A program made the position numbers and the translations under genes. Positions 32,019 through 47,902 of a stretch of DNA of 64,000 bases are shown here, piece by piece. The stretch comes from Spirochaetota bacterium (GTDB lineage: Bacteria > Spirochaetota > UBA4802 > UBA5550). Under the pieces are notes generated by a model. The model was given only the letters and a program-made list of their open reading frames with translations. It searched no databases and was not told the DNA's origin. The stretch is from assembly GCA_050298055.1 (NCBI GenBank), contig JBNKTL010000005.1, positions 34,149 to 98,148 of the forward strand, written 5' to 3'. The stretch's first letter is position 1, and each line of letters opens with the position of its first letter.

Positions 32019-33569
32019 ATGAGAAATCTGTTAATTATATTTACCGGTGTTATACTCTGTCTTGCTGCCTGCAAGAAAGGAGGAACAACTGCCGGGACTG
32101 CCGATTATAAAGATGCCACAGAAGCGGATCTGCCGCTGACACTAATTACCGAGACAAAGGTCATAAAGGGATATAATGAGAAGTCAACCCCCGATAAATA
32201 TGACAGGGTCGGATATAACAGGTATTATCTCAAGGGCCAGTCCAACAGCAGGATGCCCATACTGATCATCGTATCAGGTTATGTTGTGGATACCACATGG
32301 TTTAACAGGATGGCCAGGGACCTTGTTGCGCGAAAGAATGTTGAGGTCTGGACCATTAACAGGAGGGAGTCCCTCGTAGAGAACAGGGCGGCCCTTGATA
32401 AGGATATTAACGACTTCATGGCACATCCGGGAAAGAGGAAACAGCTTATCAGAAAGATGAACAGAACATCCAACTACCTCAAGGGGAAGGATGAGTATAT
32501 CAGGAACTGGGGCTTCACTGTCTTTATGAATGATATTAAGGCTGTTGTTAACGAAGCAAAAAAACTGAGCCGCAACATATTCCTGGGAGGATGGTCTGAC
32601 GGTGTGGAATACTGCATGATATATGCAAACTACAGGTTCACAAGCGGTTTCGGTTCCGGGGACCTCAGGGGACTGGTTTTCCTGGATGAAAATCCCGAGT
32701 GGGGAAATCTCTCGGGGAAGGAAGAGGAACTTAAGAAAAAGATAGAGAGGCAGATAAAACTAATGGAGGGAGGACATCTCTACATGAACTACTATCCCTC
32801 CCTTGCCGTGCATACCCTTGCCATGGAACTTGCTTCCAGGGCCCCCGGCGGGAAAAGTCCCCTGGCAGAGTATTTTAAACTCCCTGAAGCTGTAATGAAA
32901 TCCGGGATAACCAACCGGGGACTCATCGGATGGCTCTATGATAAGGATGTTACAAATTACGGTAAGAACGTCAGGGGGGGCTTTGCGTATCTTTTAAGAT
33001 CGGGTGACCTTGAGGTTCCTGAAATGCAGGACAATAACGGCCATGAAGAAAAGAGTGAAGAGAAAACTGACGGACCTGATAAAAATGAAAAAAACCCCGG
33101 AAAAGAGAAGAGTGAAAATACCGGCGGTCTCTGCAGGTGGAAATCGTTCAAAGAAACGGGGGAAGTTACGGATATTAACCTGATGATCAGCAGGTACAGG
33201 TCTACGGGAAATTACTGGGAATATTTTTATCCGCGAAAAGTACTCCTGGATTATTTCCAGATGGGCCTGTGTGACTTTGAGTGTCCCGGTTTCAATGTTT
33301 TTGCCAATAAGGAGAACAGTCTGCCTGTTTACTATATTTTAACCGGAACGAACAATGTGGGTAAAGGTATCCCTTCGGGACTGAAATGGTATTTGGAAAA
33401 AAGCAGTATCAAGATTGAACAGGTTGTTTTTAACAGGCTTTATGATTACGCCCATGGGGATATCTATTTCGCAGAGAATGCTCCGGCAAAGATTTACCGG
33501 CCTCTCTATGAGTGGCTGCTAAAAACTTCCGGTCTAAAGAATCCGGATAAAAAAGAGAGGAATAAATAA
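32019..33569 (+). CDS. lipoprotein, putative alpha/beta-hydrolase with low-complexity acidic/Lys-rich insert
   Basis: Lipobox LAAC at the signal peptide. A GGWSDG (GxSxG) nucleophile-elbow-like motif. A KSEEKTDGPDKNEKNPGKEKSEN low-complexity region. Confidence 0.45.
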   Translation: MRNLLIIFTGVILCLAACKKGGTTAGTADYKDATEADLPLTLITETKVIKGYNEKSTPDKYDRVGYNRYYLKGQSNSRMPILIIVSGYVVDTTWFNRMARDLVARKNVEVWTINRRESLVENRAALDKDINDFMAHPGKRKQLIRKMNRTSNYLKGKDEYIRNWGFTVFMNDIKAVVNEAKKLSRNIFLGGWSDGVEYCMIYANYRFTSGFGSGDLRGLVFLDENPEWGNLSGKEEELKKKIERQIKLMEGGHLYMNYYPSLAVHTLAMELASRAPGGKSPLAEYFKLPEAVMKSGITNRGLIGWLYDKDVTNYGKNVRGGFAYLLRSGDLEVPEMQDNNGHEEKSEEKTDGPDKNEKNPGKEKSENTGGLCRWKSFKETGEVTDINLMISRYRSTGNYWEYFYPRKVLLDYFQMGLCDFECPGFNVFANKENSLPVYYILTGTNNVGKGIPSGLKWYLEKSSIKIEQVVFNRLYDYAHGDIYFAENAPAKIYRPLYEWLLKTSGLKNPDKKERNK

Positions 33570-34435: not shown

Positions 34436-35218
34436 TCAGAACCTCAGTTTTACCCCTGTATTAATTATCCCTTTGTTTTCACTTCCCTCTATTCCGACAT
34501 TTTTACCAGCTTCGAGGATATCATTGATTCTGCTTTTATTCTTCAAGTAGCTGTATCCGTAATATCCGGCCGCAGGATAACCGATTGCTGCTGATACGAT
34601 GCATAAAATAACGATAACAGTACTTATCAATCCAAACTGGAGGACCGCATAAAAAAGATATCCGATACCCAGGGAGATTGTGCTGCTTGCAGAGTAAAAC
34701 ATGAAGTTATACCTGTTAGAGAGGATGTTCTCCTTTTCAAAGTATTTATATTTTATGAGGTATTCCGGGGGAAGAAAGTCAACATCTTCTTTTGTTCCGG
34801 TATCGAGCTGGAAACTTCCGGTAATGGGATAGTTCATATAACTGAAATATCGTGAATTAACCGGTTTGTTGTTAAACATTCTCTCAATTGTATAGGTATA
34901 ACCGCTGTTTTCAAGAGTCTGAGGAAGCCGGACGGAATAAAATTCCCCGTAATAGAGTTTCGGTGCTATGATGAATTTCTGGGGAGATGCCTGCCTATTC
35001 TCCTTTTTCTTCAGGGTGATTCTGTATTTTGTCTCTTTCCCATCTTTATATCCGTAAATATCTTTCCATATAAAGGATGGGCGATTGTTGCTAATACTGT
35101 CACAGGGATAAAGCAACGGTTTAACGGGGCTCCTCGATTCTGCATAAATAGAGGAATAGATGAAGATACATGAAACCGTTATAGATGTGTATATTCGATA
35201 TCTTATCATCTGGATCAA
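34436..35218 (-). CDS. hypothetical protein with N-terminal signal and C-terminal TM helices
   Basis: 260-aa ORF; no recognisable family. Confidence 0.35.
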   Translation of the reverse strand: MIQMIRYRIYTSITVSCIFIYSSIYAESRSPVKPLLYPCDSISNNRPSFIWKDIYGYKDGKETKYRITLKKKENRQASPQKFIIAPKLYYGEFYSVRLPQTLENSGYTYTIERMFNNKPVNSRYFSYMNYPITGSFQLDTGTKEDVDFLPPEYLIKYKYFEKENILSNRYNFMFYSASSTISLGIGYLFYAVLQFGLISTVIVILCIVSAAIGYPAAGYYGYSYLKNKSRINDILEAGKNVGIEGSENKGIINTGVKLRF

Positions 35219-35300
35219 ATAAAAGTCGAGCTGGAGTTAGTCTGTTTTAATGAGAGCGATTGTCAAGAGAGTTTTCCGGTTTGGGCCCAGTTATTTGAAA

Positions 35301-35458
35301 GGGTCAGAGCATATAGGAAAAAAGCAGATGCAATTATGTCATCTGGATATATAATTTATCAGAAAAATGCATTATTTTACAATAGATGCTGCTCTGTCCC
35401 CTATATTTTTGTTCTAGAGGGTCAGAGCATAGTTTATTTCACAATTGCTCCTGACCCA
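35301..35458. repeat. cluster of REP-like GGGTCAGAGCA motifs in inverted pairs (35301-35311 / 35390-35400 and 35419-35429 / 35446-35458)
   Basis: Direct reading shows GGGTCAGAGCA forward twice and TGCTCTGTCCC / TGCTCCTGACCCA inverted partners, in the AT-rich divergent region upstream of the radical SAM gene. Confidence 0.6.
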
Positions 35459-35643
35459 TAAATATGATTTATACTAACTTGACAAATTGTGGTATGTATA
35501 AATTTATTGAACAATCCTTATAATCATTTAAAGAAACAACAGAGTAACATTTAGCAAAAGTTAAAGACAGATTGTTTAAGTCTTTTAAAAACAATTGTTG
35601 AAAACAGAATTAATTTTGTTTAACCTTCAAAGGAGTATAGATT

Positions 35644-36705
35644 ATGAAAATGCCGAATATTCCCCGGTTAATTTTCTGGGAACTGACAAAGAGATGCAAC
35701 CTTTCCTGTATACACTGCCGTGCTGAAGCTGAGGATAACGAGTTCTACGGAGAACTTGAATTTGAACAGATAAAAAAAGTCATTGATGATATCTCCGAAG
35801 TTTCCAAACCGATACTTGTTCTCACAGGTGGCGAACCCCTTTATAGAAATGATATATTCGATATTGCTCGCTATGCATCAAGTCGTGATTTTCGTGTTGC
35901 CCTGGCAACTAATGGAACACTTGTAAACGAAGAAACTGCTAAAAAAATTAAGGATGCGGGTATTCTCAGGGCCAGTATCTCCCTGGATGGCTGGGATGCG
36001 GAATCTCATGATAGTTTCAGAGCAGTGGAGGGGAGTTTTGAAAATGCTTTGAAGGGAACTCATTATTTAAAAGATGCCGGTGTTGAATTTCAATTCAATA
36101 CAACTATCACAAAAAGAAATGTAGACCGAATGGAAGATATACTGAAGCTTGCTGAAAAAGAAGGTGCAGCGGCACTACACCTTTTCATGCTTGTGCCTGT
36201 AGGTTGCGGTGTAGAAATTGCCGAAACAGATATGATCTCCAGTGAAAAATATGAGGAGGCACTCAACTGGTTATATAATAAATCGAAAGAAGTTAAGATG
36301 GAATTCAAAGCAACATGCGCGCCTCATTATTACAGAATTATCAGGCAAAGAGCAAAGGGAGAGGGGAGAAAACTCAACTTCGAAGAGGATGGAATGGCTG
36401 CCATGACAAGGGGATGTCTTGCAGGTAGCGGTGTTTGTTTTATCTCTCATAGTGGTGATGTCCAACCATGCGGATATCTCCCAATATCAGCAGGGAATGT
36501 GCTGGAAACGCCATTCGAGAAGATCTGGGAAGAATCGGAGCTTTTCCAGTCACTGAGAGATGTTCACCAGCTTAAGGGTAAATGTGGTGACTGTGAGTAC
36601 AGAATGGCCTGTGGGGGCTGCCGGGCAAGGGCATACTATTCGGAAAAAGATTATCTGGGGGAGGAACCTTACTGTATGTATGAGCCCAGGAAAAGAACCG
36701 ATTAA
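35644..36705 (+). CDS. radical SAM/SPASM-domain protein, NirJ/AhbC/AhbD-like (candidate alternative heme biosynthesis enzyme)
   Basis: PRLIFWELTKRCNLSCIHC (CxxxCxxC with the PRLxxWExT lead typical of NirJ-family proteins), HLFMLVPVGCG, and a C-terminal Cys-rich SPASM region (CGDCEYRMACGGCRARAY). Confidence 0.55.
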   Translation: MKMPNIPRLIFWELTKRCNLSCIHCRAEAEDNEFYGELEFEQIKKVIDDISEVSKPILVLTGGEPLYRNDIFDIARYASSRDFRVALATNGTLVNEETAKKIKDAGILRASISLDGWDAESHDSFRAVEGSFENALKGTHYLKDAGVEFQFNTTITKRNVDRMEDILKLAEKEGAAALHLFMLVPVGCGVEIAETDMISSEKYEEALNWLYNKSKEVKMEFKATCAPHYYRIIRQRAKGEGRKLNFEEDGMAAMTRGCLAGSGVCFISHSGDVQPCGYLPISAGNVLETPFEKIWEESELFQSLRDVHQLKGKCGDCEYRMACGGCRARAYYSEKDYLGEEPYCMYEPRKRTD

Positions 36706-36807
36706 TACGTTATAAAAAAAATCAAAAACAAATGACAAGCTAATAATAGTAATTTAGTGAAAATTATTTATGAGAAGTTTTTATTGTTATCATTACTTTT
36801 CATCATG

Positions 36808-37398
36808 TTAATAAATTATTGATAATCTCTTTCTATAGGCTTCTTCATAATAAAGAAACCTGTTAATTCTTTCTTTAAATGTTGATCCAAGTTGTAGAAA
36901 AAAATCATGTTGTGTTATTTTCAGTGGAGATTTATACGTTTCGTTAAGGTATGAATTTATACTGCCATACCTGTAATTTCTCGGATCTTTAACTATTTTT
37001 TCCCTTACTGCGTCAAAGCCGAGATACCATAAGAACCAAAGAAAGTATATTGCAGGATTTTTTAGAAGTTCAATAACAAGACTTTTGAATCTTTCACTCC
37101 AGAATGCACCTTCTCTATTATTCAATCTATTGTATCTTTCAGCAAATCGTGATTTAATATACTGCATTATTCTGGAAATTGTTTCACCGTCATGAAGAGT
37201 TTTAATAATAAAATGAAAATGGTTGTCGAGTATTTCATATGTAATGAGTTGAAATTTATATTTTTTTAAAGCTTTGTCTATGATAGAAATCATTAGATCT
37301 TTATAAAAGTCACTTTCCATCATATTTCTGCTCTCAATACACCGTGATGTAACATGATAAGTCATGCCTGGTTCACAAATTCTTAAAGGTCTTGGCAT
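36808..37398 (-). CDS. HUH (Y1) transposase-like protein, IS200-like / REP-associated tyrosine transposase (RAYT)-like; possibly catalytically degenerate
   Basis: RPLRI.EPGMTYHVTSRCIESR N-terminal block, DNHFHFII HuH motif, and ISRIMQYIKSRFAERYN...AFWSERF block. In my hand alignment the WxRNYYEH tyrosine position reads F (FWSERFKS). GGGTCAGAGCA REP-like inverted pair immediately 5' of the gene. Confidence 0.5.
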   Translation of the reverse strand: MPRPLRICEPGMTYHVTSRCIESRNMMESDFYKDLMISIIDKALKKYKFQLITYEILDNHFHFIIKTLHDGETISRIMQYIKSRFAERYNRLNNREGAFWSERFKSLVIELLKNPAIYFLWFLWYLGFDAVREKIVKDPRNYRYGSINSYLNETYKSPLKITQHDFFLQLGSTFKERINRFLYYEEAYRKRLSIIY

Positions 37399-37465
37399 GG
37401 GATTCTCCTTTGTTGTTGTTTATATTAATACGATTGAAGTTGTGATTATTTAAAAAAAATTTTTC

Positions 37466-37566
37466 GAAATAAGAAAAAAATAGGGTCAGAGCAATAATTT
37501 ATTCTTCAAAATAGTGGTTCTGCCCCTTGGTTTCCCAAAAATAATGCTCTGACCCTATTTCTTATG
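37466..37566. repeat. REP-like inverted pair (ATAAGAAA...TAGGGTCAGAGCA ... TGCTCTGACCCTATTTCTTAT), REPIN-like
   Basis: About 21-bp arms (37466-37493 and 37545-37566) separated by ~50 bp, directly upstream of the HUH transposase-like gene. Confidence 0.65.
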
Positions 37567-37595
37567 GATTATAAAAAATTAGTTTAATATACTTG

Positions 37596-37625
37596 TTGAC
37601 AATTAAAAAAAAATGTTAATATAAT
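37596..37625 (+). promoter_or_regulatory. sigma70-like promoter TTGACA-N18-TATAAT
   Basis: TTGACA at 37596..37601 and TATAAT at 37620..37625. The RBS AGGAG lies 8 nt before the ATG at 37676. Confidence 0.5.
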
Positions 37626-37675
37626 TAGATAGCAATATACCTTCTTATGCGGACTGCAATATACAGGAGCTGCTT

Positions 37676-39178
37676 ATGAAAGAGAACCTCGCGTCTGGAA
37701 AGTGGCACTATTTCACTGCTATAACTCTGTTGTTGATATTTATAATTGTCCTTTTTATTAAAAAAGGGGTCAGAGCAATGGATTATGGCGGAAGAATTGA
37801 TACCCAATATCAGTACAGAACCGGTGATGATGAAGCTGACCAGGATGTCTACCAGTTCCATGCTTTTGAACTTAGCTTTTCGAAAGATCTCAGCTTTGAA
37901 TGGAACGGCGGTTTGAGATACGATATTGACGGTAAAAACACTTCCGCATCGGGTCTTGATGATGCGTCTGATGTTGCCTTAAGGGGACTCCCGGATGCGG
38001 TTAATGAGGAGATGAATTTGGAGTACAGAATATACTCCGCGTTTGTTAAATATAAAACCGCTTTGTTTAGCACCCAAATCGGCAGATCATTTCTCTGGGA
38101 TTATGAGTTTTCCCACTTTGACGGTGCAATGATCTGGTTGAAGCCTCTTGACTGGATTACTATTGAAGGTTTTGTGGGAAAGCCATGGCATTACGCTTAC
38201 TATAATGATTACTCAAAGTACTGGGACGAGTCAGAATCTATCGGAGGTGGCGGAGTGATCTTTAAATTTCGCAAACAGAAACTTGATTTTGCACTCAGGT
38301 ATCTGAACCTCCGGGAACTTACCGAGAAAACAACAGAAACAGGTGAGGCTTCAGATACCTTTCTGTCAAATGACAACCTGACCCGTGCCGCCCTTTCTTA
38401 TACGCCGTTGCGGATTATAAGGGCCGATATATCCGCCTCCTTCATTGACAATGAGGGAAGAAATATCGATGCCGGTTTAAGCGGGTACAGCAGCGAATAT
38501 TTATTCACCTACAGGGTGAATTACTACAGGCAATTCATGGATATAGAATATTACGGAAGCAGATTGTCTCAATATTCCTCCTTTCTTACTGCTAACCATC
38601 CCTATCATAAAGCTTCGGTATATATCACAAAAAGCCTGGCAGATATATTCGGATTTATTGGGCCTGTCTCCGATATGGAGATCGAGGCAGGATATGAATA
38701 CAGGGGGCCTGTTGATCTGGATGAGCGGGATTCCTTTAATCCCGAGTATCAACTTATAAGGGGAGGTCTCATTGCTGCGATAAATGAAAAATATTATCTC
38801 AATATTTTCTCTGAGACCATTATTACAACAGGTGACCGTAACGATACACGGACTTTTGGCGGTGAAATATCCAGAAAATGGAAGACATTGATTATAAAAC
38901 TTGGCTCTGCTTATTTTGTCCATAAATACGAACAGAACTATTCGGATACCCTGATAAAGGACAGCTTCTATGCCAGGGAATACTATTTCAATGTGAAGTG
39001 GATGCCGATAAAATCGCTGGATGTTTCCCTCAAGGCCACTTATGAACAGGCCGAGCTTTCATCCCTGACAGATACTTCGAAGCAGAACCAGGATGTCGTT
39101 TCGGAGCCAATAACAGAGATCATAACCGAGCCCAGGGATTACATGAAGGTTAAACTCAAAGTCGGTTATATGTTTTAA
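37676..39178 (+). CDS. putative outer-membrane beta-barrel (porin-like) protein
   Basis: Signal-peptide-like N-terminus (hydrophobic stretch then VRA). It is Tyr/Gly/Asp-rich with alternating amphipathic strands and a C-terminal ...LKVGYMF aromatic terminus. A GGGTCAGAGCA motif is embedded at 37767..37777 within the signal-peptide coding region. Confidence 0.5.
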   Translation: MKENLASGKWHYFTAITLLLIFIIVLFIKKGVRAMDYGGRIDTQYQYRTGDDEADQDVYQFHAFELSFSKDLSFEWNGGLRYDIDGKNTSASGLDDASDVALRGLPDAVNEEMNLEYRIYSAFVKYKTALFSTQIGRSFLWDYEFSHFDGAMIWLKPLDWITIEGFVGKPWHYAYYNDYSKYWDESESIGGGGVIFKFRKQKLDFALRYLNLRELTEKTTETGEASDTFLSNDNLTRAALSYTPLRIIRADISASFIDNEGRNIDAGLSGYSSEYLFTYRVNYYRQFMDIEYYGSRLSQYSSFLTANHPYHKASVYITKSLADIFGFIGPVSDMEIEAGYEYRGPVDLDERDSFNPEYQLIRGGLIAAINEKYYLNIFSETIITTGDRNDTRTFGGEISRKWKTLIIKLGSAYFVHKYEQNYSDTLIKDSFYAREYYFNVKWMPIKSLDVSLKATYEQAELSSLTDTSKQNQDVVSEPITEIITEPRDYMKVKLKVGYMF

Positions 39179-39189
39179 AGGAGGGTCTT

Positions 39190-40278
39190 ATGAAAATTTT
39201 CAATAACATTAAAATAAATGGAAGAATGAAATCAGGACAGGTGCTGATACTCTCGGCAATAATGATACTGACAGGCTCAGTTTATCTCTGGGGTCTGCTT
39301 CAGAAGAAATCCAGCGGCCTGAAAATGGACCATAAAATCCATGCTGAAAATAATGTGGTGTGCTCTACATGCCACTCTATGAATTCTAATACACGGTTTA
39401 TGACCTTTAAGGGCCACGATGCATGTTCTGAGTGTCATGAGCAGGTCAAGAGTACAAATAAAGAGGATTGTAAAATATGTCACACTAACAGCGAAGGTAA
39501 AACAGCTCTCAGAAAGAATATAAACCTCAGCCCGCTGGTCAACTTTGACCATAAAATCCATGCTGAGGGAGGAGTTAAATGTATCCAGTGTCATACGCGT
39601 GCAGATAAGGAGAAATCTGTTTCCGGCAATAATATGATCCCTCAGATGGAAACCTGTGTGGATTGTCATAAGGACCGGAAGATTGCCGATACGGATGATT
39701 GTTCTACCTGTCACGTAGAGGGATATGAGAGGATAAGGCCTGCGGACCACACACCCTTCTGGTTTCGAAACCACGGTCGGGGGCTGGACAGCAGCACAAG
39801 AGAAAAGAGCTGCAATATCTGCCATACAAAGAAGCTTGGTAATGACTGTCTCAGCTGCCACAGGCGGGAAAAACCGAAAAACCACACAATAGGCTGGAGG
39901 GTGAGAAGCCATGCGCAGTATGCGCAGATTAACCGTGAAAGTTGTGTTACCTGCCATACACAGGGTGAGTGTATTGCATGTCATACAACAACTGAGCCCT
40001 TTTCACATACCGGGTTTTGGGGTGCTCCCTACAACAGACACTGTATTAATTGTCATGTCACAGGCGGGGATTTCAGCGGTGCTTCCGGTGTAGGGAACAA
40101 CTGCACTTTCTGTCACAGGCAGGGGACAATAGTAAGCCGGCATACAACATTGCCGAGGCCGTCAGGTCACGCAACAACAGGATGTTCCAATAACGGTGCA
40201 TCCTGTCACAATGGAAGCCTGGGGCTCAGGCACCCGTATCCCACATCAACTTTCAGCTGCAGGAGCTGTCACCAGTAG
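39190..40278 (+). CDS. multiheme cytochrome c (13 CxxCH motifs), membrane-anchored/periplasmic
   Basis: Thirteen CxxCH motifs counted by eye (CSTCH, CSECH, CKICH, CIQCH, CVDCH, CSTCH, CNICH, CLSCH, CVTCH, CIACH, CINCH, CTFCH, CRSCH). N-terminal TM/signal anchor. It starts 12 nt after the beta-barrel gene. Confidence 0.85.
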   Translation: MKIFNNIKINGRMKSGQVLILSAIMILTGSVYLWGLLQKKSSGLKMDHKIHAENNVVCSTCHSMNSNTRFMTFKGHDACSECHEQVKSTNKEDCKICHTNSEGKTALRKNINLSPLVNFDHKIHAEGGVKCIQCHTRADKEKSVSGNNMIPQMETCVDCHKDRKIADTDDCSTCHVEGYERIRPADHTPFWFRNHGRGLDSSTREKSCNICHTKKLGNDCLSCHRREKPKNHTIGWRVRSHAQYAQINRESCVTCHTQGECIACHTTTEPFSHTGFWGAPYNRHCINCHVTGGDFSGASGVGNNCTFCHRQGTIVSRHTTLPRPSGHATTGCSNNGASCHNGSLGLRHPYPTSTFSCRSCHQ

Positions 40279-40291
40279 CTTATCTCCTTAA

Positions 40292-40345
40292 TGCTCTGAC
40301 CCTCTCTCTTTTTTATTTGGCAGAAAAAGAGAGAGGGTCAGAGCA
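40292..40345. repeat. 22-bp perfect-stem hairpin built from the REP-like motif (TGCTCTGACCCTCTCTCTTTTT / AAAAAGAGAGAGGGTCAGAGCA)
   Basis: Immediately follows the cytochrome stop codon. Possible terminator or REPIN. Confidence 0.7.
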
Positions 40346-40425
40346 GTAATTCAGGGGTCAGAGCAGTAATTCAGGGGTCAGAGCAGTAATTCAGGGGTCA
40401 GAGCAGTAATTCAGGGGTCAGAGCA
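40335..40425. repeat. tandem direct repeat, 4.5 copies of a 20-bp unit GGGTCAGAGCAGTAATTCAG
   Basis: Perfectly identical units at 40335, 40355, 40375 and 40395, plus a partial unit at 40415. There are no spacers, so it is not CRISPR. Confidence 0.85.
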
Positions 40426-40522
40426 TTTTATCACGGGAAAATCCAAAAAAACAGGATACTCCACCCGGAATACCCTGTTTAAGTTCCAACCTGAATTATG
40501 CCTGATAATAATACAGATATTC

Positions 40523-41815
40523 TTATGGCCTGGTTCCGCCATTTGGATAAGTCACAATGCTGGCACCGGCATTTAACTGCAGGTTCTCTATGGCATCCCA
40601 GAGGAGCTGTGCGACATAAGTTGCATTATGGATGCCCCCGCTCCTGTCCTCAAGTGCGAGCCTGAAGTTCCAGAATGACGCTGCCTGTGCCTGTGTAAAG
40701 GTTGCCGTCTGTATTTCCCAGTCAAGTCCCCATTCACCTGTAGTCTGGTCACTTCCTGTCAAACCGACAATAGGCCCGGTTCCATCACCGCTGAAGTTGT
40801 TAGTGCCGTCACCGAAATATTTTACCAGTGTTGCCATCATTCCGGAAATCTCATTGATCATACCTTCCGTTGATCCAGTTCCATCCCAGTTCGATGGTGC
40901 AGTGTGGTTGGTCTCACCGGCAAATGTCGCTCCGAATGCGGGCCATCCGCTTGGATGGCATCCAGTCGCCTGGCATGAAGCCACAAGATCATAAGAGTTC
41001 CCGTGAACCTCGCCCTTCAGATAGAAACCGTGTCCGCCCAGGGCAAGGCTGTCATTGCTTCCGGCTTCCGAATACATGTGGCACTGTACGCAGCTGTCTG
41101 TTATTGCTCCCTCATGGTCACCTGAAGCCAGGTAAGCGGCACCCCCTGTGGGATCTTGATAATTACCGACACCTATATCAAGTTCAATACTTGCTATAGC
41201 GGTAGCATTTGACCAGGGAAAGGCGTTTGCTCCCACAAGAACATCGGCCTGCGGTCCGTGGTGCGGCCCCCTGTAACTTGCCAGTGACGCTGTTGCCGTT
41301 GAAAAGACAAAGTTGTCAGTGGCCACAGAGTTTGCCCTGTGGCACGCAACACAGAGATTACCCTTTCCGATGTTAAAGCCTGTGCCATCCTTCAGGGTCA
41401 CCGCGTCAGTAGTTCTTAAGGTGAAATCACCGGATGTATGAGGCGAATGGCATGTGAAACATCCCGGTGGCGCAGAGTATGAACCTGTGCTTGTTTCTCC
41501 CGAAAGCGAAGTAACAAACGCCTCATGGTTGTGACATGATTCGGCACAATAGGACGCGTTGCTTCCGTGGTGAATGTAGGTATGCCCCGTTGTCAAATAA
41601 TTGGGGTCCAGGGTCCTCGGTCCAAGCCAGTGCCCGGAATTATCATATCCTGCCTGCGCAAAGAGGAGTGCCATGCCGATTGTTGATGTTTCGCTATGAC
41701 ATCCCATGCAGCCTGCGGTATCACTGCTTGAACTGCTGTCATCACCGCATCCGATAGCGAACAGAGCGGATACGGTTATTATCATCAGCACATAGAGGAA
41801 AAATTTCAAACGCAT
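40523..41815 (-). CDS. lipoprotein multiheme cytochrome c (5-6 heme motifs including CxxxCH/CxxxxCH variants)
   Basis: Start at 41815 after a GGAGG Shine-Dalgarno; the ORF track gives 41866. Signal peptide with lipobox AIGC. Heme motifs CMGCH, CAESCH, CFTCH, CVACH, CVQCH, CQATGCH. Gly/Thr/Ser-rich. Confidence 0.75.
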   Translation of the reverse strand: MRLKFFLYVLMIITVSALFAIGCGDDSSSSSDTAGCMGCHSETSTIGMALLFAQAGYDNSGHWLGPRTLDPNYLTTGHTYIHHGSNASYCAESCHNHEAFVTSLSGETSTGSYSAPPGCFTCHSPHTSGDFTLRTTDAVTLKDGTGFNIGKGNLCVACHRANSVATDNFVFSTATASLASYRGPHHGPQADVLVGANAFPWSNATAIASIELDIGVGNYQDPTGGAAYLASGDHEGAITDSCVQCHMYSEAGSNDSLALGGHGFYLKGEVHGNSYDLVASCQATGCHPSGWPAFGATFAGETNHTAPSNWDGTGSTEGMINEISGMMATLVKYFGDGTNNFSGDGTGPIVGLTGSDQTTGEWGLDWEIQTATFTQAQAASFWNFRLALEDRSGGIHNATYVAQLLWDAIENLQLNAGASIVTYPNGGTRP

Positions 41816-42673
41816 TATGAAAACCTCCGTTTGATTAAATTTATATAAACATCGGAGATTTTGCACATCCTGCAGCTGGAATCGGATCGCCGTGTAATCT
41901 CTTCTGTTAATATCGCAGTATTAATCCAACTAAGTCGTCTTCAGCTGATATTTTCCTCATTTGTAGAAAAAATTTTTCGTGAACCTGAACCGGGTAAGAT
42001 TTCTGTTTTTATGGAAGACAAGAAAGAAAAAGAAGAGTTTCTGAATAACATTAGTAACATCCTTATCCTTACTATTAATTATAATATACTTAATTTTAAG
42101 GTTAGTCAATAATATTGTCAGATTTTAAAAATTTATGGTTTTATTGCTCTATTACGTTTTTTTATATCCAGCACTATACATAGCCCTTAAACGTCTGTTA
42201 GATGATATGCTTTGAGGAGTAAAATGGGTTTTTATGGAATTTTACAGGAAACATGAAGATCTTCTTTCATAAATATGTAACAATTACAAATCTGTATTGA
42301 CAAAAAATTATAGAATATTGTTGGAATTTTAGTAAATAAATGTATCTTTATTAATATCGCTGAGTAATTAAGGAGAAATCACACAAACAGTACGATGTCA
42401 TGTAAAATACCTTTTTTGTAATGCTGAAAAAATATGATAAAATTAAGAAATTATATACTTTTTAAAAAAATAAGTTGATTAAAAAAGATGGTGTCTGTCT
42501 ATTGTATTTCACTCAATATTATTAAATAAAGAGAAATAATGGGAATATAAAGTCAGAATTGATTAATATAGATGCTGTTTAAAATGGCATATTCCCGTTT
42601 AAAAATTTATTTTTTTATTGTGCATTTTGCCAGGGATTAACCTGTATAAATAATAATTTTTAGGAGGGAAAGA

Positions 42674-44446
42674 ATGAGCTTGCCAAAACTTGATCCTACC
42701 AAGTTGGCTGACTGGCAGATAGCCGAAGAAGCTGAAAAGCATATGAAAAAGGTCTATCAGCTCGCAGATGAACTGGGAATCAAAAATGAAGAATTAATTC
42801 CTTACGGACACTATTTCGGAAAAGTTGACTATGAAGTTGCATACGAAAGATTAAAGGACAAACCTGACGGCAAATATATTGATGTAACGGCTATTACTCC
42901 CACACCTCTTGGTGAAGGGAAAAGTACTTCAACAATGGGCCTTGTTCAGGGTCTGGGGAAAAGAGGTAAAAACGTAACAGGCGCCATCAGGCAGCCGTCC
43001 GGCGGACCGACCATGAATGTGAAGGGAAGCGCAGCGGGAGGCGGACTTTCGCAGTGTATTCCCCTAACGCCCTTTTCACTTGGACTTACCGGTGACATCA
43101 ATGCAATTATGAATGCCCATAACCTCGCTATGGTTGCAATCACTTCCCGGATGCAGCATGAGTTTAATTATAACGATGAGATACTCAAATCAAAGAATCT
43201 CAAGAGGCTCGATATTGATCCCCATAATGTTGAGTTCAGGTGGATTATCGACTTCTGTGCGCAGTCTCTGAGAGAAATTATTATCGGCCTCGGAGGTCCC
43301 AAAAACGGTTTCACTATGAGATCGAGTTTTGGTATTGCAGTAAGTTCCGAGCTTATGGCTATTCTCGCGGTTGCAACAAGCCTCAAAGATATGAGAGAGA
43401 GGATGGGTAAGATCGTTGTTGCCTACAGCAAATGGGGCGACCCGGTCACAACAGCCGATCTCGAAGTTGACGGGGCTATGACGGCATGGATGATGGAGGC
43501 CATCAATCCCACACTTATGCAGACAATTGAAGGCCAGCCTGTATTTGTTCACGCAGGTCCTTTTGCCAACATTGCTATCGGCCAGTCTTCAATCGTTGCC
43601 GACAAGCTGGGCCTCAAGCTGGGAGACTACCATGTTACCGAGAGCGGTTTCGGTGCTGATATCGGGTTTGAGAAGTTCTGGAACCTCAAATGCAGGTTCA
43701 GCGGACTTACACCGGACTGTGCTGTTATTGTTGCCACAGTCAGGGCCCTCAAGAGTCATGGCGGCGGTCCTCCTGTTCCTCCCGGAAAGAAACTCGACCC
43801 GGTCTATACATCTGAAAATGTTGAGCTTGTTGACAAGGGATGTGTCAACCTCGTTAAGCATATCGAAAACGTCAAGAAGGCGGGGATTTCTCCTGTTGTC
43901 TGTATCAACTCCTTCTACACCGATACAAAAGATGAAATTGCTGCTATCAGGAAACATGCCGAAGCGGCAGGTGCCAGGGTGGCGGTATCCAATCACTGGC
44001 TCGAAGGCGGTGATGGGGCCCTTGAGTTAACTGATGCGGTGATCGAAGCATCTGAGGAAAAGACAGACTTCAAATTCCTCTACGAGCTCGATGCGTCCCT
44101 CAGCGAGAGGATCGATAAGATCGCCAGAGAGGTTTACGGTGCGGATGGCGTTAGCTACACTCCTGAAGCAAAGGCAAAGCTTGAAAGAATGGAGAAGGAC
44201 CCTGATATATCATCGCTGGGAACATGTATGGTTAAAACACACCTGAGCCTTTCACATGATCCTACGCGGAAGGGGGCCCCCACAGGCTGGACTCTGCCCG
44301 TAAGGGACATCCTCACATACAAAGGCGCCGGCTTTGTGGTTCCCGTTGCGGGTACTATCAGCCTGATGCCGGGTACGGCTTCTGATCCTGCATACAGAAG
44401 GGTCGATGTTGATACCAAGAGAAGGAAAATCACCGGAGTATTCTAA
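42674..44446 (+). CDS. fhs: formate--tetrahydrofolate ligase (formyl-THF synthetase)
   Basis: 590 aa; [13 protein letters not shown]-loop region and overall FTHFS family similarity. Confidence 0.9.
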
Positions 44447-44967
44447 TACCGGGTGATCTGAAATATAACGGATACCGGTACCGGACTTTCCGGTGCCGGT
44501 GTTCATAAAAAAACATTTGAAAGTTATCTTTAATTTTGATATTATTTCAATAGTTATACATGAGCCAGATGTCACTTAAAGATAAGTCAGAGTCAGCCTG
44601 AGAAGCTGGCTTGAGTAGAGGTTATAAAAAGATTGATTGTTACATCCGGGGTGAAATGTTCACCCGGTAAAATAGATAGAGGCTTATTAAATGCATTGAT
44701 GCTGCCTGTATGCCTGTCAGACATCTCTCTATTCGCTTATTCAGATATCAGTATTGACCTGGGATCTTTTAAAGAACTATAGTATCAATTTTTAATTGTT
44801 ATTACAATTAAAACAGCAATTATTGATTTTTAAAGGAATAGCCTGTTAAGTATTTTAAAAGATCCTAAAAAAATATTGAATTAATTAAGAATAATTTTTA
44901 AATGGAGCAATGGACACAAAAATGGGATTTTACTAAGGAGTTTGTCTGAATTGGAAGAGGAAGTTTT

Positions 44968-45723
44968 ATGAGTTATGTAATCGCCGTAGCAGGCAAGGGG
45001 GGGACCGGAAAATCTACCGTTTCGTCATTAATTGTTCGTTCATTATTGAAAAAGGGGGAGACTCCTGTTCTTGCTATTGATGCGGACCCGAATTCCAATC
45101 TCGCAGAATCCATTGGGATCAATGTAAATGATACAATCGGTACTGTTCTCTCCGATTACATGAGACAGAGACTGGACCTCCCCCAGGGGATGACCAAGCA
45201 GGCTTTCCTGGAGATGAAACTTCACCAGATCATCAAAGAGGATGATAAAATTGATATGCTGGTCATGGGCTGTCCCGAAGGCTCCGGTTGTTACTGCGGC
45301 GCCAACGCGATTCTTAAAAGTTATTTTGAAGACCTTAAAAAGAACTACAAATTCATTGTTGTAGACAACGAGGCGGGGATGGAGCACTTCAGCAGAAAGA
45401 CAGCGGCTGATATCGATCTTCTCCTTTTTGTTTCAAATTATTCCAAAAAAGGAATTGTAACCGTAGAGAGACTCTCAAAGATGGTTGATGACCTTAAACT
45501 TTCGGTCAAAAACCGTTATCTTTTAATAAACCAGACCCCTGAAGAGCTGGATCCTGATTTTGTCAAAGATGTAGAAAATATCGGAATACCCTATTTCGGT
45601 AACCTGGTTTCCGATAAAGTGATAGAAGAATATGATGTTAAAGGTAAGCCGTTAACAGACCTTCCGGACGATTCTCTTACCGTACAGAACTTTGAAGAAA
45701 TGCTCTGGGAGAGAATAGATTAA
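44968..45723 (+). CDS. cooC: CO dehydrogenase nickel-insertion accessory ATPase CooC/AcsF
   Basis: IAVAGKGGTGKSTVSSL deviant Walker A of the MinD/CooC family. 251 aa. Sits inside the ACS cluster. Confidence 0.85.
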   Translation: MSYVIAVAGKGGTGKSTVSSLIVRSLLKKGETPVLAIDADPNSNLAESIGINVNDTIGTVLSDYMRQRLDLPQGMTKQAFLEMKLHQIIKEDDKIDMLVMGCPEGSGCYCGANAILKSYFEDLKKNYKFIVVDNEAGMEHFSRKTAADIDLLLFVSNYSKKGIVTVERLSKMVDDLKLSVKNRYLLINQTPEELDPDFVKDVENIGIPYFGNLVSDKVIEEYDVKGKPLTDLPDDSLTVQNFEEMLWERID

Positions 45724-45744
45724 AGAAATTTTATGGAGGAAAAA

Positions 45745-46638
45745 ATGTCAGCAAAGATCATAAGCGGAACAGAAATTGCCAAAGAGATCAGGGCGGAACT
45801 GAAAAGTGAAGTTGAAGAACTGGTCAGTAAACATAATGTTCAACCGGGACTTGTTACCATTCTTGTGGGAGAAAATCCCGCATCGGTAAGCTATGTTACG
45901 GCAAAAGGGAAAACAGCCAAGGAACTGGGATTCAACTCAATACAGGATGACCAGCCCGAGGATATCACGGAGGAAGATCTTCTGAAGTTGATTGATAAAT
46001 ACAATAATGACCCGAAGATCCATGGAATTCTTGTTCAGCTTCCCCTGCCAAAACACATTGACGAGAATAAGGTTCTCTATGCCATCGATCCGGATAAGGA
46101 TGTTGACGGATTTCATCCGGTAAATGTGGGAAGACTCGTCATTGGCGAGGCAAAGTTCTATCCCTGCACACCATACGGGATTCAGGAGATGCTCATCCGT
46201 TCAGGAGCAATCCATGACGGGGCAGAAGTTGTGGTCGTGGGGAGAAGTAATATTGTGGGTAAACCAATATCCATGATGCTGGTTCAGAAGGCCAAGGGCG
46301 CCAACGCCACCGTAACCATGTGTCACACACGGACAAAGGACATGAAGGCCCACACTCTGCGTGCTGATATTCTTATTGTGGCGGCGGGTGTTCCCAAGGC
46401 GGTAACGGCGGATATGGTCAAGCCGGGCGCGGTGGTCATAGATGTGGGGGTCAACCGGGTGGGAAAGACACCGGAAGGAAAGGCGATCCTTGAGGGAGAT
46501 GTGGACTTTGAGCCTGTGAAGGAGATCGCGTCCGCCATAACTCCGGTACCCGGCGGTGTGGGCCCCATGACCATTACAATGCTTATGAAGAACACGGTGA
46601 GAGCCGCAAAGATAGCGGCAGGTCTTTCACTGGATTAA
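45745..46638 (+). CDS. folD: bifunctional methylenetetrahydrofolate dehydrogenase/methenyl-THF cyclohydrolase FolD
   Basis: THF_DHG_CYH family motifs (SYVTAKGK, VQLPLP, GRSNIVGKP). The ATG at 45745 follows a GGAGG; the upstream ATG at 45733 is part of the Shine-Dalgarno. Confidence 0.9.
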   Translation: MSAKIISGTEIAKEIRAELKSEVEELVSKHNVQPGLVTILVGENPASVSYVTAKGKTAKELGFNSIQDDQPEDITEEDLLKLIDKYNNDPKIHGILVQLPLPKHIDENKVLYAIDPDKDVDGFHPVNVGRLVIGEAKFYPCTPYGIQEMLIRSGAIHDGAEVVVVGRSNIVGKPISMMLVQKAKGANATVTMCHTRTKDMKAHTLRADILIVAAGVPKAVTADMVKPGAVVIDVGVNRVGKTPEGKAILEGDVDFEPVKEIASAITPVPGGVGPMTITMLMKNTVRAAKIAAGLSLD

Positions 46639-46716
46639 ATATGTCTGTAAACGGAGGATAGAATTATTTTCCGATTAAGTTATATATTTTGAAAAAAGAC
46701 CTCAGGAGGTAAATAT

Positions 46717-46932
46717 ATGTCTGAGAAAATAGTCGAGAAGAAGGATTTTTCCGGAAAAACCGTAAAGGTCCTTGATGAAACATATGAGCCGGGTAATCCG
46801 TCTGCTGATAAAGATCAGATAGATAAGTGGCGAAACAAGATAAGAAACAGAGATCAGAACATGAAATTCTTACAGAGTTCTCAGAGGTACTGGTACAGTA
46901 ATGACTGGTATGGAAGCGAAAAGAGAAAATAA
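46717..46932 (+). CDS. small hypothetical protein (71 aa) within the acetyl-CoA pathway cluster
   Basis: ORF with an AGGAGG Shine-Dalgarno. Lys/Asp-rich, Trp/Tyr-rich C-terminus. No family recognised. Confidence 0.3.
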   Translation: MSEKIVEKKDFSGKTVKVLDETYEPGNPSADKDQIDKWRNKIRNRDQNMKFLQSSQRYWYSNDWYGSEKRK

Positions 46933-46960
46933 TTGTCAGGAAACAGGAAGGAGGAACTAA

Positions 46961-47902
46961 ATGGCTTTTGAAATCCCAAAAATTGATTATTCTGGTAAAA
47001 TCAGAGAGATAACATTAGGTACAGGCGACAAGGCTGTTACTGTTGGCGGGGAGACCTGCTATCCGTTCTATACTTTTGAAGGTGAAATGCCCCATCTTCC
47101 GAAGGTCTCAATGGAAGTATGGGACTTTCAACCGGATGACTGGGCGGAGGCAGCAGTTGAGCCTTTTAATGATGTTCTCGGAGACCCGGTGGCATGGGCA
47201 AAGAAGTGCGTAGATGAATACGGAGCTGAGCTCATTACCCTTCAACTCCGAAGTATAGATCCCAATGGCATGAACAGGCCCGCGGAAGAAGCTGCTGATG
47301 TGGCCGCAAAGGTTATCGAAGCGGTTGATGTACCTGTTATTTTATGGGGTGTTGCCTCTCATGAAAAAGATACCGAAGTATTAAGGCTGATTGCTGAAAA
47401 GTGCGAAGGGAAAAACGTATCCCTGGGACCTGTTGAGGAAGGTGATTACAAGCAGATAGGTGCGGGCGCCATAGCGTACAAGCACGTTGTGGTTGCTTCT
47501 TCTCCCATTGACATCAACCTTGCAAAGCAGCTGAACATACTTCTCGGCAACCTGGGAGTTGGAGATGACAAGATCATTGTTGATCCCACCACCGGCGCCC
47601 TGGGCTATGGACTGGAATATTCTTATTCCGTAATGGAGAGGGACAGAATGGCGGCCCTTACACAGGAAGATGAAAAGCTCCAGTATCCGATTATCTGTAA
47701 TGTGGGACTGGAAACATGGAAGGTCAAGGAGTCAAAGATCTCCGAATCCGAAGAGCCCACACTGGGAGACGCAAAAAAGAGAGGAATAATGATAGAGTGC
47801 GTAACGGCAATGTCTGCTCTGCTTGCCGGTGCGGATATCCTTGTCATGCGTCATCCTGAATCTATCAAACTTATTAAGAAGATGATCGACGATCTTGCTT
47901 AG
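46961..47902 (+). CDS. acsD: corrinoid iron-sulfur protein small subunit AcsD
   Basis: Clear collinear similarity to Moorella AcsD: ...AWAKKCVDEYGAELI..., SPIDINLAKQLNIL, DPTTGALGYGLEYSYSVMER, LLAGADILVMRHPE. Confidence 0.85.
   Translation: MAFEIPKIDYSGKIREITLGTGDKAVTVGGETCYPFYTFEGEMPHLPKVSMEVWDFQPDDWAEAAVEPFNDVLGDPVAWAKKCVDEYGAELITLQLRSIDPNGMNRPAEEAADVAAKVIEAVDVPVILWGVASHEKDTEVLRLIAEKCEGKNVSLGPVEEGDYKQIGAGAIAYKHVVVASSPIDINLAKQLNILLGNLGVGDDKIIVDPTTGALGYGLEYSYSVMERDRMAALTQEDEKLQYPIICNVGLETWKVKESKISESEEPTLGDAKKRGIMIECVTAMSALLAGADILVMRHPESIKLIKKMIDDLA

What the first reader, a model, noticed from the sequence alone, without database searches (positions are those of the whole stretch)
37596..41815. 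Repeat-flanked porin-like beta-barrel, 13-heme cytochrome, and a convergent lipoprotein multiheme cytochrome: candidate porin-cytochrome (extracellular electron transfer) module in an accessory island
A beta-barrel OMP gene with a consensus sigma70 promoter and Shine-Dalgarno is followed 12 nt later by a 362-aa protein with 13 CxxCH motifs. Facing them is a lipobox-bearing multiheme cytochrome (5-6 motifs, including CX3CH and CX4CH variants). This three-part arrangement parallels porin-cytochrome conduits (Geobacter OmbB-OmaB-OmcB type, MtrAB), although I cannot show sequence homology to them. The block is bounded by REP-like repeats, a transposase-like gene and a radical SAM gene, consistent with an acquired or mobile accessory region.
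Basis: inference. Interest (0 to 1): 0.65.

Follow-up and report, generated by a model that had tools for sequence, protein, structure and literature searches.

The report
Spirochaete porin-cytochrome electron conduit genes
Three adjacent genes in a spirochaete-like genome encode an outer-membrane barrel, a 13-14-heme cytochrome and a six-heme lipoprotein cytochrome, which together look like a wire for moving electrons across the outer membrane, a known kind of system I found no report of in this phylum.

Summary
ORF 37676-39178 is a signal-peptide-bearing, Cys-free protein that AlphaFold2 models as a roughly 22-strand beta-barrel. ORF 39190-40278 has 13 CxxCH motifs plus a conserved fourteenth site (CX6CH). 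ORF 40523-41815 (minus strand) is a lipobox protein with six conserved heme sites (4 CxxCH, CX3CH, CX4CH).

The barrel and multiheme genes are adjacent in all seven Spirochaetota genomes that carry the barrel family. The hexaheme lipoprotein gene lies next to them in five further loci, and in one it forms a co-directional three-gene operon.

The multiheme protein is homologous to the 14-heme cytochrome of an Ignavibacteria porin-cytochrome-type cluster. The barrel is remotely related to porins that sit beside homologous 13-heme cytochromes. The lipoprotein has an NrfA-superfamily fold; its best structural match is OcwA, a surface electron-transfer cytochrome. It has no CxxCK motif.

Best reading: a Pcc-type trans-outer-membrane electron conduit, a new member of a known kind. 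Direction and substrate are unknown.

The "accessory island" idea is not supported. The radical SAM gene is heme synthase AhbD. The locus lies between ccm/hem and Wood-Ljungdahl clusters. Gene composition is normal. The transposase and repeats occupy the same positions in an 80%-identical relative.

The parts
37596..37625 (+). sigma-70-type promoter-like site (TTGACA, 18 nt, TATAAT) upstream of the barrel gene
   Evidence: 12 of 12 consensus matches; the only perfect match in 37300-42700. This is a consensus match only; function was not tested.
37676..39178 (+). outer-membrane beta-barrel protein (500 aa), the porin-like sheath of the conduit
39190..40278 (+). multiheme c-type cytochrome (362 aa): 13 CxxCH motifs plus one conserved CX6CH site. 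Proposed to be the heme wire inserted in the barrel.
   Evidence: Motif count. The alignment shows 14 invariant heme sites. Pfam hits are Cytochrome_C7, the MtrC/MtrF II/IV domain and c3. Profile search of PDB finds ActA of alternative complex III at 4e-24, the GSU1996 dodecaheme at 2e-23 and MtrA (6r2q_A) at 2e-6. hhalign gives 99.8% probability against a 14-heme cytochrome of an Ignavibacteria porin-cytochrome cluster.
40288..40434 (.). REP-like palindrome (arms 40288-40313 and 40324-40349) immediately after the cytochrome stop codon, followed by five tandem 20-nt units GGGTCAGAGCAGTAATTCAG
   Evidence: The arms are 96% complementary. The hairpin probably acts as a transcript-end or stabilising structure for the plus-strand operon (inference). 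The same arrangement is seen in relative L014.
40449..40480 (-). intrinsic-terminator-like hairpin followed by a T-run, downstream of the lipoprotein cytochrome gene
   Evidence: 14-bp stem followed by TTTTTGGATTT on the minus strand.
40523..41815 (-). hexaheme lipoprotein c-type cytochrome (430 aa) with an NrfA/OcwA-like fold. Proposed to be the outer, surface component.
37447..37591 (.). REP-like inverted pair (GGGTCAGAGCA at 37483 on the plus strand and at 37545 on the minus strand) between the transposase-like gene and the promoter
36808..37398 (-). REP-associated tyrosine transposase (RAYT)-like Y1 transposase gene
   Evidence: Pfam Y1_Tnp at 2.7e-12. NCBIfam REP_Tyr_transpos scores 65.9 bits, below the 80-bit cut-off. 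G+C is 0.296, against 0.42-0.52 for its neighbours. The gene is at the same position in relatives L013 and L014.
35644..36705 (+). AhbD, radical SAM/SPASM heme b synthase (last step of the siroheme-dependent heme pathway). Supplies the cofactor; it is not a mobile-element gene.
   Evidence: NCBIfam TIGR04545 scores 503 bits, above its 500-bit cut-off, E 4.5e-151.

Best explanation
The three genes encode a Pcc-type (porin-cytochrome) trans-outer-membrane electron conduit of a Spirochaetota bacterium.

Proposed mechanism:
1. The 500-aa protein is exported and folded by BAM into a roughly 22-strand outer-membrane barrel.
2. The co-transcribed 13/14-heme cytochrome is exported, loaded with heme by the Ccm system encoded 15 kb upstream, and inserted lengthwise into the barrel. 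This forms an insulated heme wire from the periplasm to the cell surface.
3. The hexaheme lipoprotein, with an OcwA/NrfA-like fold, is lipid-anchored at the outer membrane. It takes electrons from the wire and passes them to an extracellular or membrane-impermeant acceptor such as mineral Fe(III)/Mn(IV), humic substances, a partner cell or a conductive particle. The chain could also run in reverse.

What is shown: gene anatomy, heme-site conservation, barrel prediction, export signals, conserved linkage of the genes, and remote homology to Pcc-type clusters.

What is inferred: insertion of the cytochrome into the barrel, surface exposure of the lipoprotein, and the direction and substrate of electron flow.

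For: Heme wire: there are 13 CxxCH motifs plus a conserved fourteenth site in about 320 mature residues. The protein is built of c7/c3-type modules like the GSU1996 'nanowire' cytochrome and has weak similarity to MtrA.

Linkage: the barrel and multiheme genes are adjacent with gaps of about 10 nt in all 7 Spirochaetota genome loci, although their neighbourhoods differ. The hexaheme lipoprotein gene is convergent downstream in the window, L008, L011, L012 and a JGI contig. In L015 it lies upstream in the same operon, in the order lipoprotein-barrel-cytochrome with 10-11 nt gaps.

Homology to Pcc-type clusters: hhalign gives 99.8% probability (E 3e-29) against an Ignavibacteria 14-heme cytochrome that is flanked by a porin-like protein and a 26-heme cytochrome. 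This layout matches the I. album IALB_1839-1837 cluster described in PMC4245776. Remote hits of the barrel profile are the family of the L018 porin, which sits next to a 13-heme homologue of the window cytochrome.

Outer component: atypical CX3CH and CX4CH motifs are reported for Pcc outer cytochromes. The best fold matches are the surface electron-transfer cytochromes OcwA and OmhA.

Cofactor supply: ccmABCEF, hemACDBL and ahbD lie on the same strand just upstream.
Against: - Nothing here shows a physical complex, heme attachment, or cell-surface location.
- The barrel has no detectable similarity to MtrB/PioB models or to the Ignavibacteria porin. Its link to the L018 porin is weak (hhalign probability 29%, E 5.7e-4).
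- The multiheme protein's N-terminus has a 20-residue hydrophobic stretch and aligns with membrane-anchored ActA. It may therefore stay anchored in the inner membrane rather than be free to thread into the barrel.
- The lipoprotein is in the NrfA superfamily, and its model is only moderately confident, with the N-terminal third below pLDDT 50.
- No inner-membrane quinol dehydrogenase gene is present in the window (one search finds only these two multiheme ORFs).
- In two genomes (L003/L007 and L001/L006) no lipoprotein cytochrome gene lies within 8 kb of the pair.
Confidence: 0.65

Rival explanations
1. Two-component conduit plus a periplasmic partner. Only the barrel and the 14-heme cytochrome span the outer membrane, as proposed for the two-gene pcc clusters of Anaeromyxobacter and Kuenenia. 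The hexaheme lipoprotein faces the periplasm. There it acts either as the electron donor to the wire or as an NrfA-like reductase of a small soluble substrate.
For: Two genomes have the barrel-cytochrome pair with no lipoprotein cytochrome gene nearby. Shi et al. argue that 12-14 hemes are enough to cross the membrane alone (PMC4245776). The lipoprotein shares the NrfA C-terminal helix motif and fold. Distant relatives of the lipoprotein have ordinary signal peptides and no porin neighbours.
Against: The lipobox is conserved in exactly the subfamily that is linked to the barrel. In L015 the lipoprotein gene is the first gene of the operon. The protein has no CxxCK motif and no invariant Lys or Arg. 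Eight invariant His residues outside the heme motifs are enough to make all six hemes bis-His coordinated. The best fold match is a surface cytochrome.
Confidence: 0.2
2. The same conduit runs inward. It takes electrons from extracellular Fe(II), a cathode-like mineral or a syntrophic partner, and feeds them to CO2 reduction by the Wood-Ljungdahl enzymes encoded immediately downstream.
For: The Wood-Ljungdahl cluster (fhs, cooC, folD, acsABCDE, Hdr-like genes) begins 860 bp from the lipoprotein gene. Homologous porin-cytochrome systems such as MtoAB and PioAB are known to work in the oxidising direction (PMC4245776). Sequence alone cannot give direction.
Against: The adjacency to Wood-Ljungdahl genes is not conserved in the other loci. 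No heme potentials are known. The Wood-Ljungdahl pathway could equally run oxidatively, with the conduit acting as the electron sink.
Confidence: 0.15
3. One reading: the block is a recently acquired, repeat-bounded mobile accessory island.
For: The REP-like motif is confined to 35301-40425. A RAYT-like gene with very low G+C (0.296) lies next to the barrel gene. Across the phylum the 2-3-gene module sits in unrelated neighbourhoods.
Against: RAYTs and REPs are resident genome elements, not vehicles for cargo genes (established knowledge). The same order ahbD-RAYT-barrel-cytochrome and the same repeat positions occur in a relative whose barrel protein is 80% identical. The three genes have G+C of 0.42-0.52, within the window's range. 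The flanking genes are functionally related core genes (ahbD, ccm, hem). The repeats do not bracket the lipoprotein gene.
Confidence: 0.1
4. Not a conduit. The barrel is an ordinary diffusion porin or export pore, and the cytochromes are periplasmic electron carriers that are merely co-transcribed with it.
Against: The barrel family is found only next to this cytochrome family, in 7 of 7 genomes. Its remote relatives also sit next to homologous cytochromes. The two proteins diverge in parallel across loci: 57/52, 52/51, 47/41 and 39/34 % identity.
Confidence: 0.07

Closest known systems
Pcc porin-cytochrome clusters as surveyed by Shi, Fredrickson and Zachara 2014 (PMC4245776), especially Ignavibacterium album IALB_1839-1837 and the two-gene Anaeromyxobacter clusters
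   Same: [quoted passage not shown] The barrel has 22 strands (reported range 18-22). The cytochrome has 14 heme sites in 362 aa (IALB_1838: 14 in 400 aa; Anaeromyxobacter: 12-14 in 338-344 aa). The outer cytochrome has atypical CX3-4CH motifs. The window cytochrome is homologous to a 14-heme protein from an Ignavibacteria cluster with that layout.
   Different: The host phylum is Spirochaetota, which is not among the phyla listed in that survey. The barrel shows no detectable similarity to the Ignavibacteria porin. The inner cytochrome carries a CX6CH site, whereas the survey reports no atypical motif in periplasmic Pcc cytochromes. Relatives reach 17 hemes. The outer cytochrome is a small hexaheme of NrfA/OcwA fold rather than a 12-26-heme protein. 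I did not have the I. album or Anaeromyxobacter sequences themselves; the comparison used metagenomic proxies (L016, L018).
Geobacter sulfurreducens OmbB-OmaB-OmcB (PMC4282303, PMC4589669)
   Same: Three-part architecture: porin, periplasmic multiheme cytochrome and lipoprotein outer cytochrome.
   Different: Heme numbers are 8 and 12 in Geobacter, against 14 and 6 here. No sequence comparison was possible with the tools. No orfR-type regulator gene is adjacent here.
Shewanella MtrCAB (PDB 6R2Q)
   Different: MtrB has 26 strands and more than 600 aa. The MtrB/PioB and DmsE/MtrA family models are not matched above their cut-offs. The outer cytochrome does not have an MtrC fold.
OcwA of Thermincola potens (PDB 6I5B) and OmhA of Carboxydothermus ferrireducens (PDB 6QVM)
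   Different: They have nine and eleven hemes, come from monoderm bacteria, and have no lipid anchor and no porin partner. Identity is only 17-18%, and the window model is of moderate confidence.
NrfA pentaheme nitrite reductase
   Different: The lipoprotein has no CxxCK active-site heme motif, six hemes instead of five, a lipobox, no invariant Lys or Arg for a catalytic pocket, and linkage to a porin rather than to nrfH or nrfBCD.

Membership tests
Pcc porin-cytochrome gene cluster (operational definition of PMC4245776) | Porin-like outer-membrane protein with 18-22 predicted transmembrane strands | tested here: met
Pcc porin-cytochrome gene cluster (operational definition of PMC4245776) | Gene for an exported multiheme c-type cytochrome (5-14 hemes) always adjacent to the porin gene | tested here: met
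   An 11-nt gap separates the two genes in the window. The genes are adjacent in 7 of 7 genome loci. There are 13 CxxCH motifs plus one CX6CH site. Whether the N-terminal signal is cleaved is unresolved.
Pcc porin-cytochrome gene cluster (operational definition of PMC4245776) | Outer-membrane (lipoprotein) c-type cytochrome encoded in the cluster (optional in some members) | tested here: met
   A lipobox hexaheme gene is convergent 245 nt downstream. The linkage is repeated in L008, L011, L012, L015 and a JGI contig.
Pcc porin-cytochrome gene cluster (operational definition of PMC4245776) | Sequence homology to proteins of recognised Pcc clusters | tested here: inconclusive
   Cytochrome: hhalign 99.8% probability to an Ignavibacteria 14-heme protein in a cluster with Pcc layout. 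Barrel: only E 5.7e-4 at 29% probability to the L018 porin, and nothing to the Ignavibacteria porin. The reference proteins (IALB_1838/1839, Adeh_3392, OmbB, OmaB) were not available for direct comparison.
Pcc porin-cytochrome gene cluster (operational definition of PMC4245776) | The proteins form a complex that transfers electrons across the membrane | not testable with these tools
   This needs complex modelling with hemes, proteoliposome assays or genetics.
MtrAB/PioAB/MtoAB family | Barrel matches the MtrB/PioB family models (Pfam MtrB_PioB, NCBIfam TIGR03509), about 26-28 strands | tested here: not met
   The barrel has no Pfam or NCBIfam hit at E up to 0.1. It has 22 strands and 500 aa.
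MtrAB/PioAB/MtoAB family | Decaheme periplasmic cytochrome of the DmsE/MtrA family (TIGR03508) | tested here: not met
   TIGR03508 scores 21.1 bits against a cut-off of 192.2. The protein has 13/14 hemes.
NrfA-type cytochrome c nitrite reductase (for the lipoprotein) | Pentaheme with a CxxCK active-site heme and a match to Pfam Cytochrom_C552 | tested here: not met
   No CxxCK motif. No Cytochrom_C552 hit for the window protein. There are six heme sites, and similarity is limited to the C-terminal region.
REP/RAYT system (for the flanking repeats and transposase-like gene) | Y1 transposase matching the RAYT model, flanked by palindromic REP copies | tested here: inconclusive
   NF047646 scores 65.9 bits, below its 80-bit cut-off. 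Inverted copies of GGGTCAGAGCA lie beside the gene, and there are 11 copies within 5 kb.
AhbD heme b synthase (for the radical SAM gene) | Score above the equivalog cut-off of TIGR04545 | tested here: met
   503 bits against a cut-off of 500.

The most novel reading that the evidence does not exclude
The 14-17-heme cytochrome may keep its N-terminal helix in the cytoplasmic membrane, as its ActA-like N-terminus suggests, while its far end sits in the outer-membrane barrel. That would be a single-polypeptide wire that helps bridge the spirochaete periplasm. Physiologically, the conduit would couple the adjacent Wood-Ljungdahl pathway to the outside world, either by electron uptake for acetogenesis or by electron export during syntrophic acetate oxidation. 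This would make free-living Spirochaetota electroactive acetogens or syntrophs.
Probability: 0.1. Interest if true: 0.8.

Novelty: new member of a known kind. Interest (0 to 1): 0.45.

Why it matters
Spirochaetota are usually regarded as fermenters or H2-dependent acetogens. In four literature searches of the held library I found no paper describing a porin-cytochrome conduit in this phylum.

If the module works as proposed, it would have three consequences:
- A further phylum, common in sediments, digesters and bioelectrochemical enrichments, would join the organisms able to exchange electrons with minerals, electrodes or partner cells.
- An NrfA/OcwA-type hexaheme, so far known from monoderm cell surfaces, would be linked to a diderm porin system.
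- The field would gain a compact three-gene unit (about 4.2 kb) that could be tested by heterologous expression.

The barrel family is small (about 20 clusters at 50% identity among 1.84 billion representative proteins) and is not covered by Pfam or NCBIfam. Tools that rely on such profile libraries would therefore probably miss it.

Tried and rejected
- Pfam, NCBIfam and PDB sequence searches of the barrel, alone and as a profile, gave nothing.
- hhalign of the barrel profile against the Ignavibacteria porin-like protein found no relationship.
- An Rfam scan of 35000-42800 returned only spurious microRNA-like hits on the REP hairpin. Nothing was found in the 858-bp AT-rich spacer upstream of fhs.
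The phylum assignment therefore rests on all named relatives being Spirochaetota MAGs.
- Neighbourhoods of two distant, non-lipoprotein relatives of the hexaheme were uninformative.
- I considered the radical SAM gene as a peptide maturase or mobile-element gene. I rejected this in favour of AhbD.
- A fused-chain or multimer structure prediction could not be run. The two genes are in different frames and the tool folds one chain only.


Full report
**1. What is in the sequence**

- ORF 37676-39178 (plus strand, 500 aa) has no cysteine. Its N-terminus reads MKENLASGKWHYFTAITLLLIFIIVLFIKKGVRA|MDY.
- ORF 39190-40278 (plus strand, 362 aa) begins 11 nt after the first ORF's stop codon and is preceded by GGAGG. 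It has exactly 13 CxxCH motifs.
- On the minus strand, 40523-41815 (430 aa from the ATG) begins MRLKFFLYVLMIITVSALFAIGC, which contains a lipobox. It has four CxxCH motifs, one CX3CH (CAESCH) and one CX4CH (CQATGCH).
- A perfect TTGACA-18 nt-TATAAT lies at 37596-37625. A hairpin with a T-run follows the minus-strand gene at 40480-40449.
- No other ORF in the 64-kb window has two or more CxxCH motifs.

**2. The barrel**

Neither Pfam, NCBIfam nor PDB sequences match the 500-aa protein.

Its relatives are few. The indexed search found 21. An exhaustive profile search of 1.84 billion cluster representatives found 20 at E below 1e-30 and 104 at E below 1e-3. Every relative with an organism name comes from a Spirochaetota metagenome-assembled genome. 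All relatives carry AxA-type signal peptides and end in an aromatic residue (GYMF, GYRY), the usual signature of BAM substrates.

The product is therefore an outer-membrane barrel, but fold search cannot say which kind. Twenty-two strands is the upper end of the 18-22 range reported for Pcc porins and fewer than in MtrB (PMC4245776). That such a barrel can hold a cytochrome is an inference from 22-strand TonB-dependent receptors, which enclose a plug domain. I could not measure the lumen.

**3. The multiheme cytochrome**

Pfam finds Cytochrome_C7, the MtrC/MtrF II/IV domain and c3-type domains. NCBIfam finds only sub-threshold matches: QrcA, DmsE/MtrA at 21 bits against a cut-off of 192, and OmcA/MtrC.

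The family alignment has 14 invariant Cys...Cys-His sites. At the thirteenth site the window protein reads CSNNGASCH (CX6CH), while relatives read CxxCH or CX3CH. Spirochaetota relatives have 13-14 or 17 hemes; the 17-heme forms carry a three-heme insertion.

A profile search of PDB finds ActA of alternative complex III (4e-24), the Geobacter dodecaheme GSU1996 (2e-23) and MtrA weakly (2e-6).

The N-terminus has a 20-residue hydrophobic stretch followed by a conserved [LV]-[WY]-[GA] and then ...SG-x-x-x-H. This fits either a signal-peptidase site or a retained anchor like that of ActA, and I could not decide between them. More distant relatives have lipoboxes or ordinary signal peptides.

**4. 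The lipoprotein cytochrome**

All six heme sites are conserved, and the CX3CH and CX4CH sites align with CxxCH in relatives. Eight further His residues are invariant, but no Lys or Arg is. The lipobox is conserved in the close, Spirochaetota-type relatives. More distant relatives have plain signal peptides.

The family profile matches NrfA (8bcx 5e-6, 6v0a 1e-4) and, weakly, OcwA. The match runs through the C-terminal helices and the motif EDRSxGIHN, which corresponds to AENSxGFHNP in NrfA and AADGSNGVHN in OcwA.

The protein therefore belongs to the NrfA structural superfamily. It has no CxxCK motif, and its nearest structural neighbours are surface electron-transfer cytochromes.

**5. Linkage of the three genes**

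- A scan of one genome per species found the barrel family in seven genomes, all Spirochaetota. In all seven, a homologue of the multiheme cytochrome follows within about 10 nt, although the surrounding genes differ.
- Identities of the two proteins to the window copies fall together across loci: 57/52, 52/51, 47/41, 46/40 and 39/34 %.
- A homologue of the hexaheme lipoprotein lies convergently downstream in L008, L011 and L012 (the same locus as L005), and on a JGI contig. On the JGI contig ResB/CcsA and a cytochrome b gene follow.
- In L015 the order is lipoprotein, barrel, 17-heme cytochrome, all on one strand with 10-11 nt gaps.
- In two genomes the lipoprotein gene is not near the pair. 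In one of them it lies on another contig.

**6. Relation to known porin-cytochrome clusters**

The 14-heme cytochrome profile matches, at 99.8% hhalign probability (E 3e-29), a 405-aa 14-heme protein from an Ignavibacteria genome. That protein sits between a 426-aa unannotated porin-like protein and a cytochrome of about 26 hemes. This is the layout described for I. album IALB_1839-1837, where IALB_1838 has 400 aa and 14 hemes (PMC4245776).

A second lineage (L018) has a 444-aa barrel-like protein ending in ...WRF, followed by a 13-heme lipoprotein homologue, with a NapC/NirT-type gene upstream. The weak full-length hits of the Spirochaetota barrel profile in the exhaustive search belong to this L018 porin family. 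The direct hhalign comparison gives E 5.7e-4 at 29% probability over 374 columns. The Ignavibacteria porin shows no similarity.

The cytochrome is thus clearly homologous to cytochromes of clusters with Pcc layout. The barrel is only marginally related to their porins. The operational definition of a Pcc cluster is met. Membership of the Mtr family is not.

**7. Surroundings and the 'island' idea**

The radical SAM gene at 35644-36705 is AhbD, heme b synthase (503 bits against a cut-off of 500).

Upstream on the same strand lie ccmA, B, C, E and F; a HemX-like gene; hemA, C, D, B and L; and several unknown genes. Downstream lie fhs, cooC, folD and the acetyl-CoA synthase/CO dehydrogenase genes, followed by Hdr-like genes.

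G+C is 0.42, 0.47 and 0.52 for the three genes, within the window's range. Only the RAYT-like gene is deviant, at 0.30.

The motif GGGTCAGAGCA occurs 11 times, all within 35301-40425:
- an inverted pair next to the RAYT-like gene;
- a palindrome plus five tandem 20-nt units after the cytochrome gene;
- one copy inside the codons for the barrel's signal-peptide cleavage region (GVRA).

In L014, whose barrel protein is 80% identical, the order ahbD, RAYT, barrel, cytochrome is the same, and so are the repeat positions, including the copy inside the gene. The repeats and the transposase-like gene are therefore long-term residents. They do not mark a recent insertion, and they do not bracket the lipoprotein gene.

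Over longer evolutionary distances the module does occur in different neighbourhoods, so it has moved as a unit.

**8. Mechanism, rivals and verdict**

The best-supported reading is a Pcc-type conduit: a barrel sheath, a 14-heme wire and a hexaheme lipoprotein at the outer face. Heme supply and attachment genes are encoded alongside.

Still inferred are insertion of the cytochrome into the barrel, surface exposure of the lipoprotein, and the direction and substrate of electron flow.

The rivals are:
- a two-component conduit with a periplasmic lipoprotein partner or enzyme;
- inward electron flow to the neighbouring Wood-Ljungdahl pathway;
- coincidental co-transcription.

Four literature searches of the held library found no paper describing such a module in Spirochaetota, and the papers I opened from them did not either. 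The system is a new member of a known kind, in a phylum where I found no report of it. Its outer component is of a fold so far known from monoderm cell surfaces.

Noticed in passing
window 18506-29904 (+): A contiguous cytochrome c maturation and heme biosynthesis cluster: ccmA, ccmB, ccmC, ccmE, ccmF, a HemX-like Cytochrom_C_asm protein, hemA (GlutR), hemC, hemD, hemB and hemL. Together with ahbD at 35644 it forms a heme supply block just upstream of the cytochrome module.
   Followed up: partly
window 37767-37777 (inside the barrel gene); L014 10092-10102: One exact copy of the REP-like 11-mer GGGTCAGAGCA lies inside the coding sequence, encoding the G-V-R-A signal-peptide cleavage region of the barrel protein. 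The same copy is present in the 80%-identical relative, although the motif is otherwise intergenic. Whether part of the signal peptide derives from a repeat insertion is open.
   Followed up: partly
window 40335-40434: Five head-to-tail copies of a 20-nt unit (GGGTCAGAGCAGTAATTCAG) directly follow a 26-bp REP palindrome. A similar tandem run follows the cytochrome gene in L014.
   Followed up: partly
window 42674-60792 (+): A Wood-Ljungdahl gene cluster: fhs, cooC, folD, the small CFeSP subunit, CODH, ACS, the large CFeSP subunit, a pterin-binding methyltransferase, HdrC/HdrB-like proteins, and a 1492-aa HdrA/NADH-oxidoreductase-like fusion protein.
   Followed up: partly
window 41816-42673: An 858-bp spacer with 27% G+C lies between the lipoprotein cytochrome gene and fhs. 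It has several promoter-like sites but no Rfam match.
   Followed up: partly
window 2578-8268 (+): An ORF of 1896 aa with no Pfam match at E up to 1e-4.
   Followed up: no
window 10954-14815 (-) and 15784-18371 (+): The selenocysteine machinery genes selB and selA lie next to NuoF-like and NuoG-N-terminal-like iron-sulfur flavoprotein genes. These may be part of a selenium-dependent formate dehydrogenase or hydrogenase module.
   Followed up: no
L014 1-7749: In the 80%-identical relative, a giant multiheme cytochrome lies directly upstream of ahbD. It was called as 3917 aa and runs off the locus; at least 43 CxxCH and 22 CX3-6CH motifs are in the visible part. The window has different genes at that position.
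   Followed up: no
L020 3376-6248: A distant, non-lipoprotein relative of the hexaheme cytochrome lies directly after a methylenetetrahydrofolate reductase gene and a DUF5981 gene. This is another juxtaposition of this cytochrome family with C1 metabolism.
   Followed up: no
window 32019-33569 (+) and 34436-35218 (-): Two proteins without family matches lie between hemL and ahbD: a 516-aa protein with a lipobox (LAAC) and a 260-aa protein. A YdjM-family membrane hydrolase gene lies between them.
   Followed up: no
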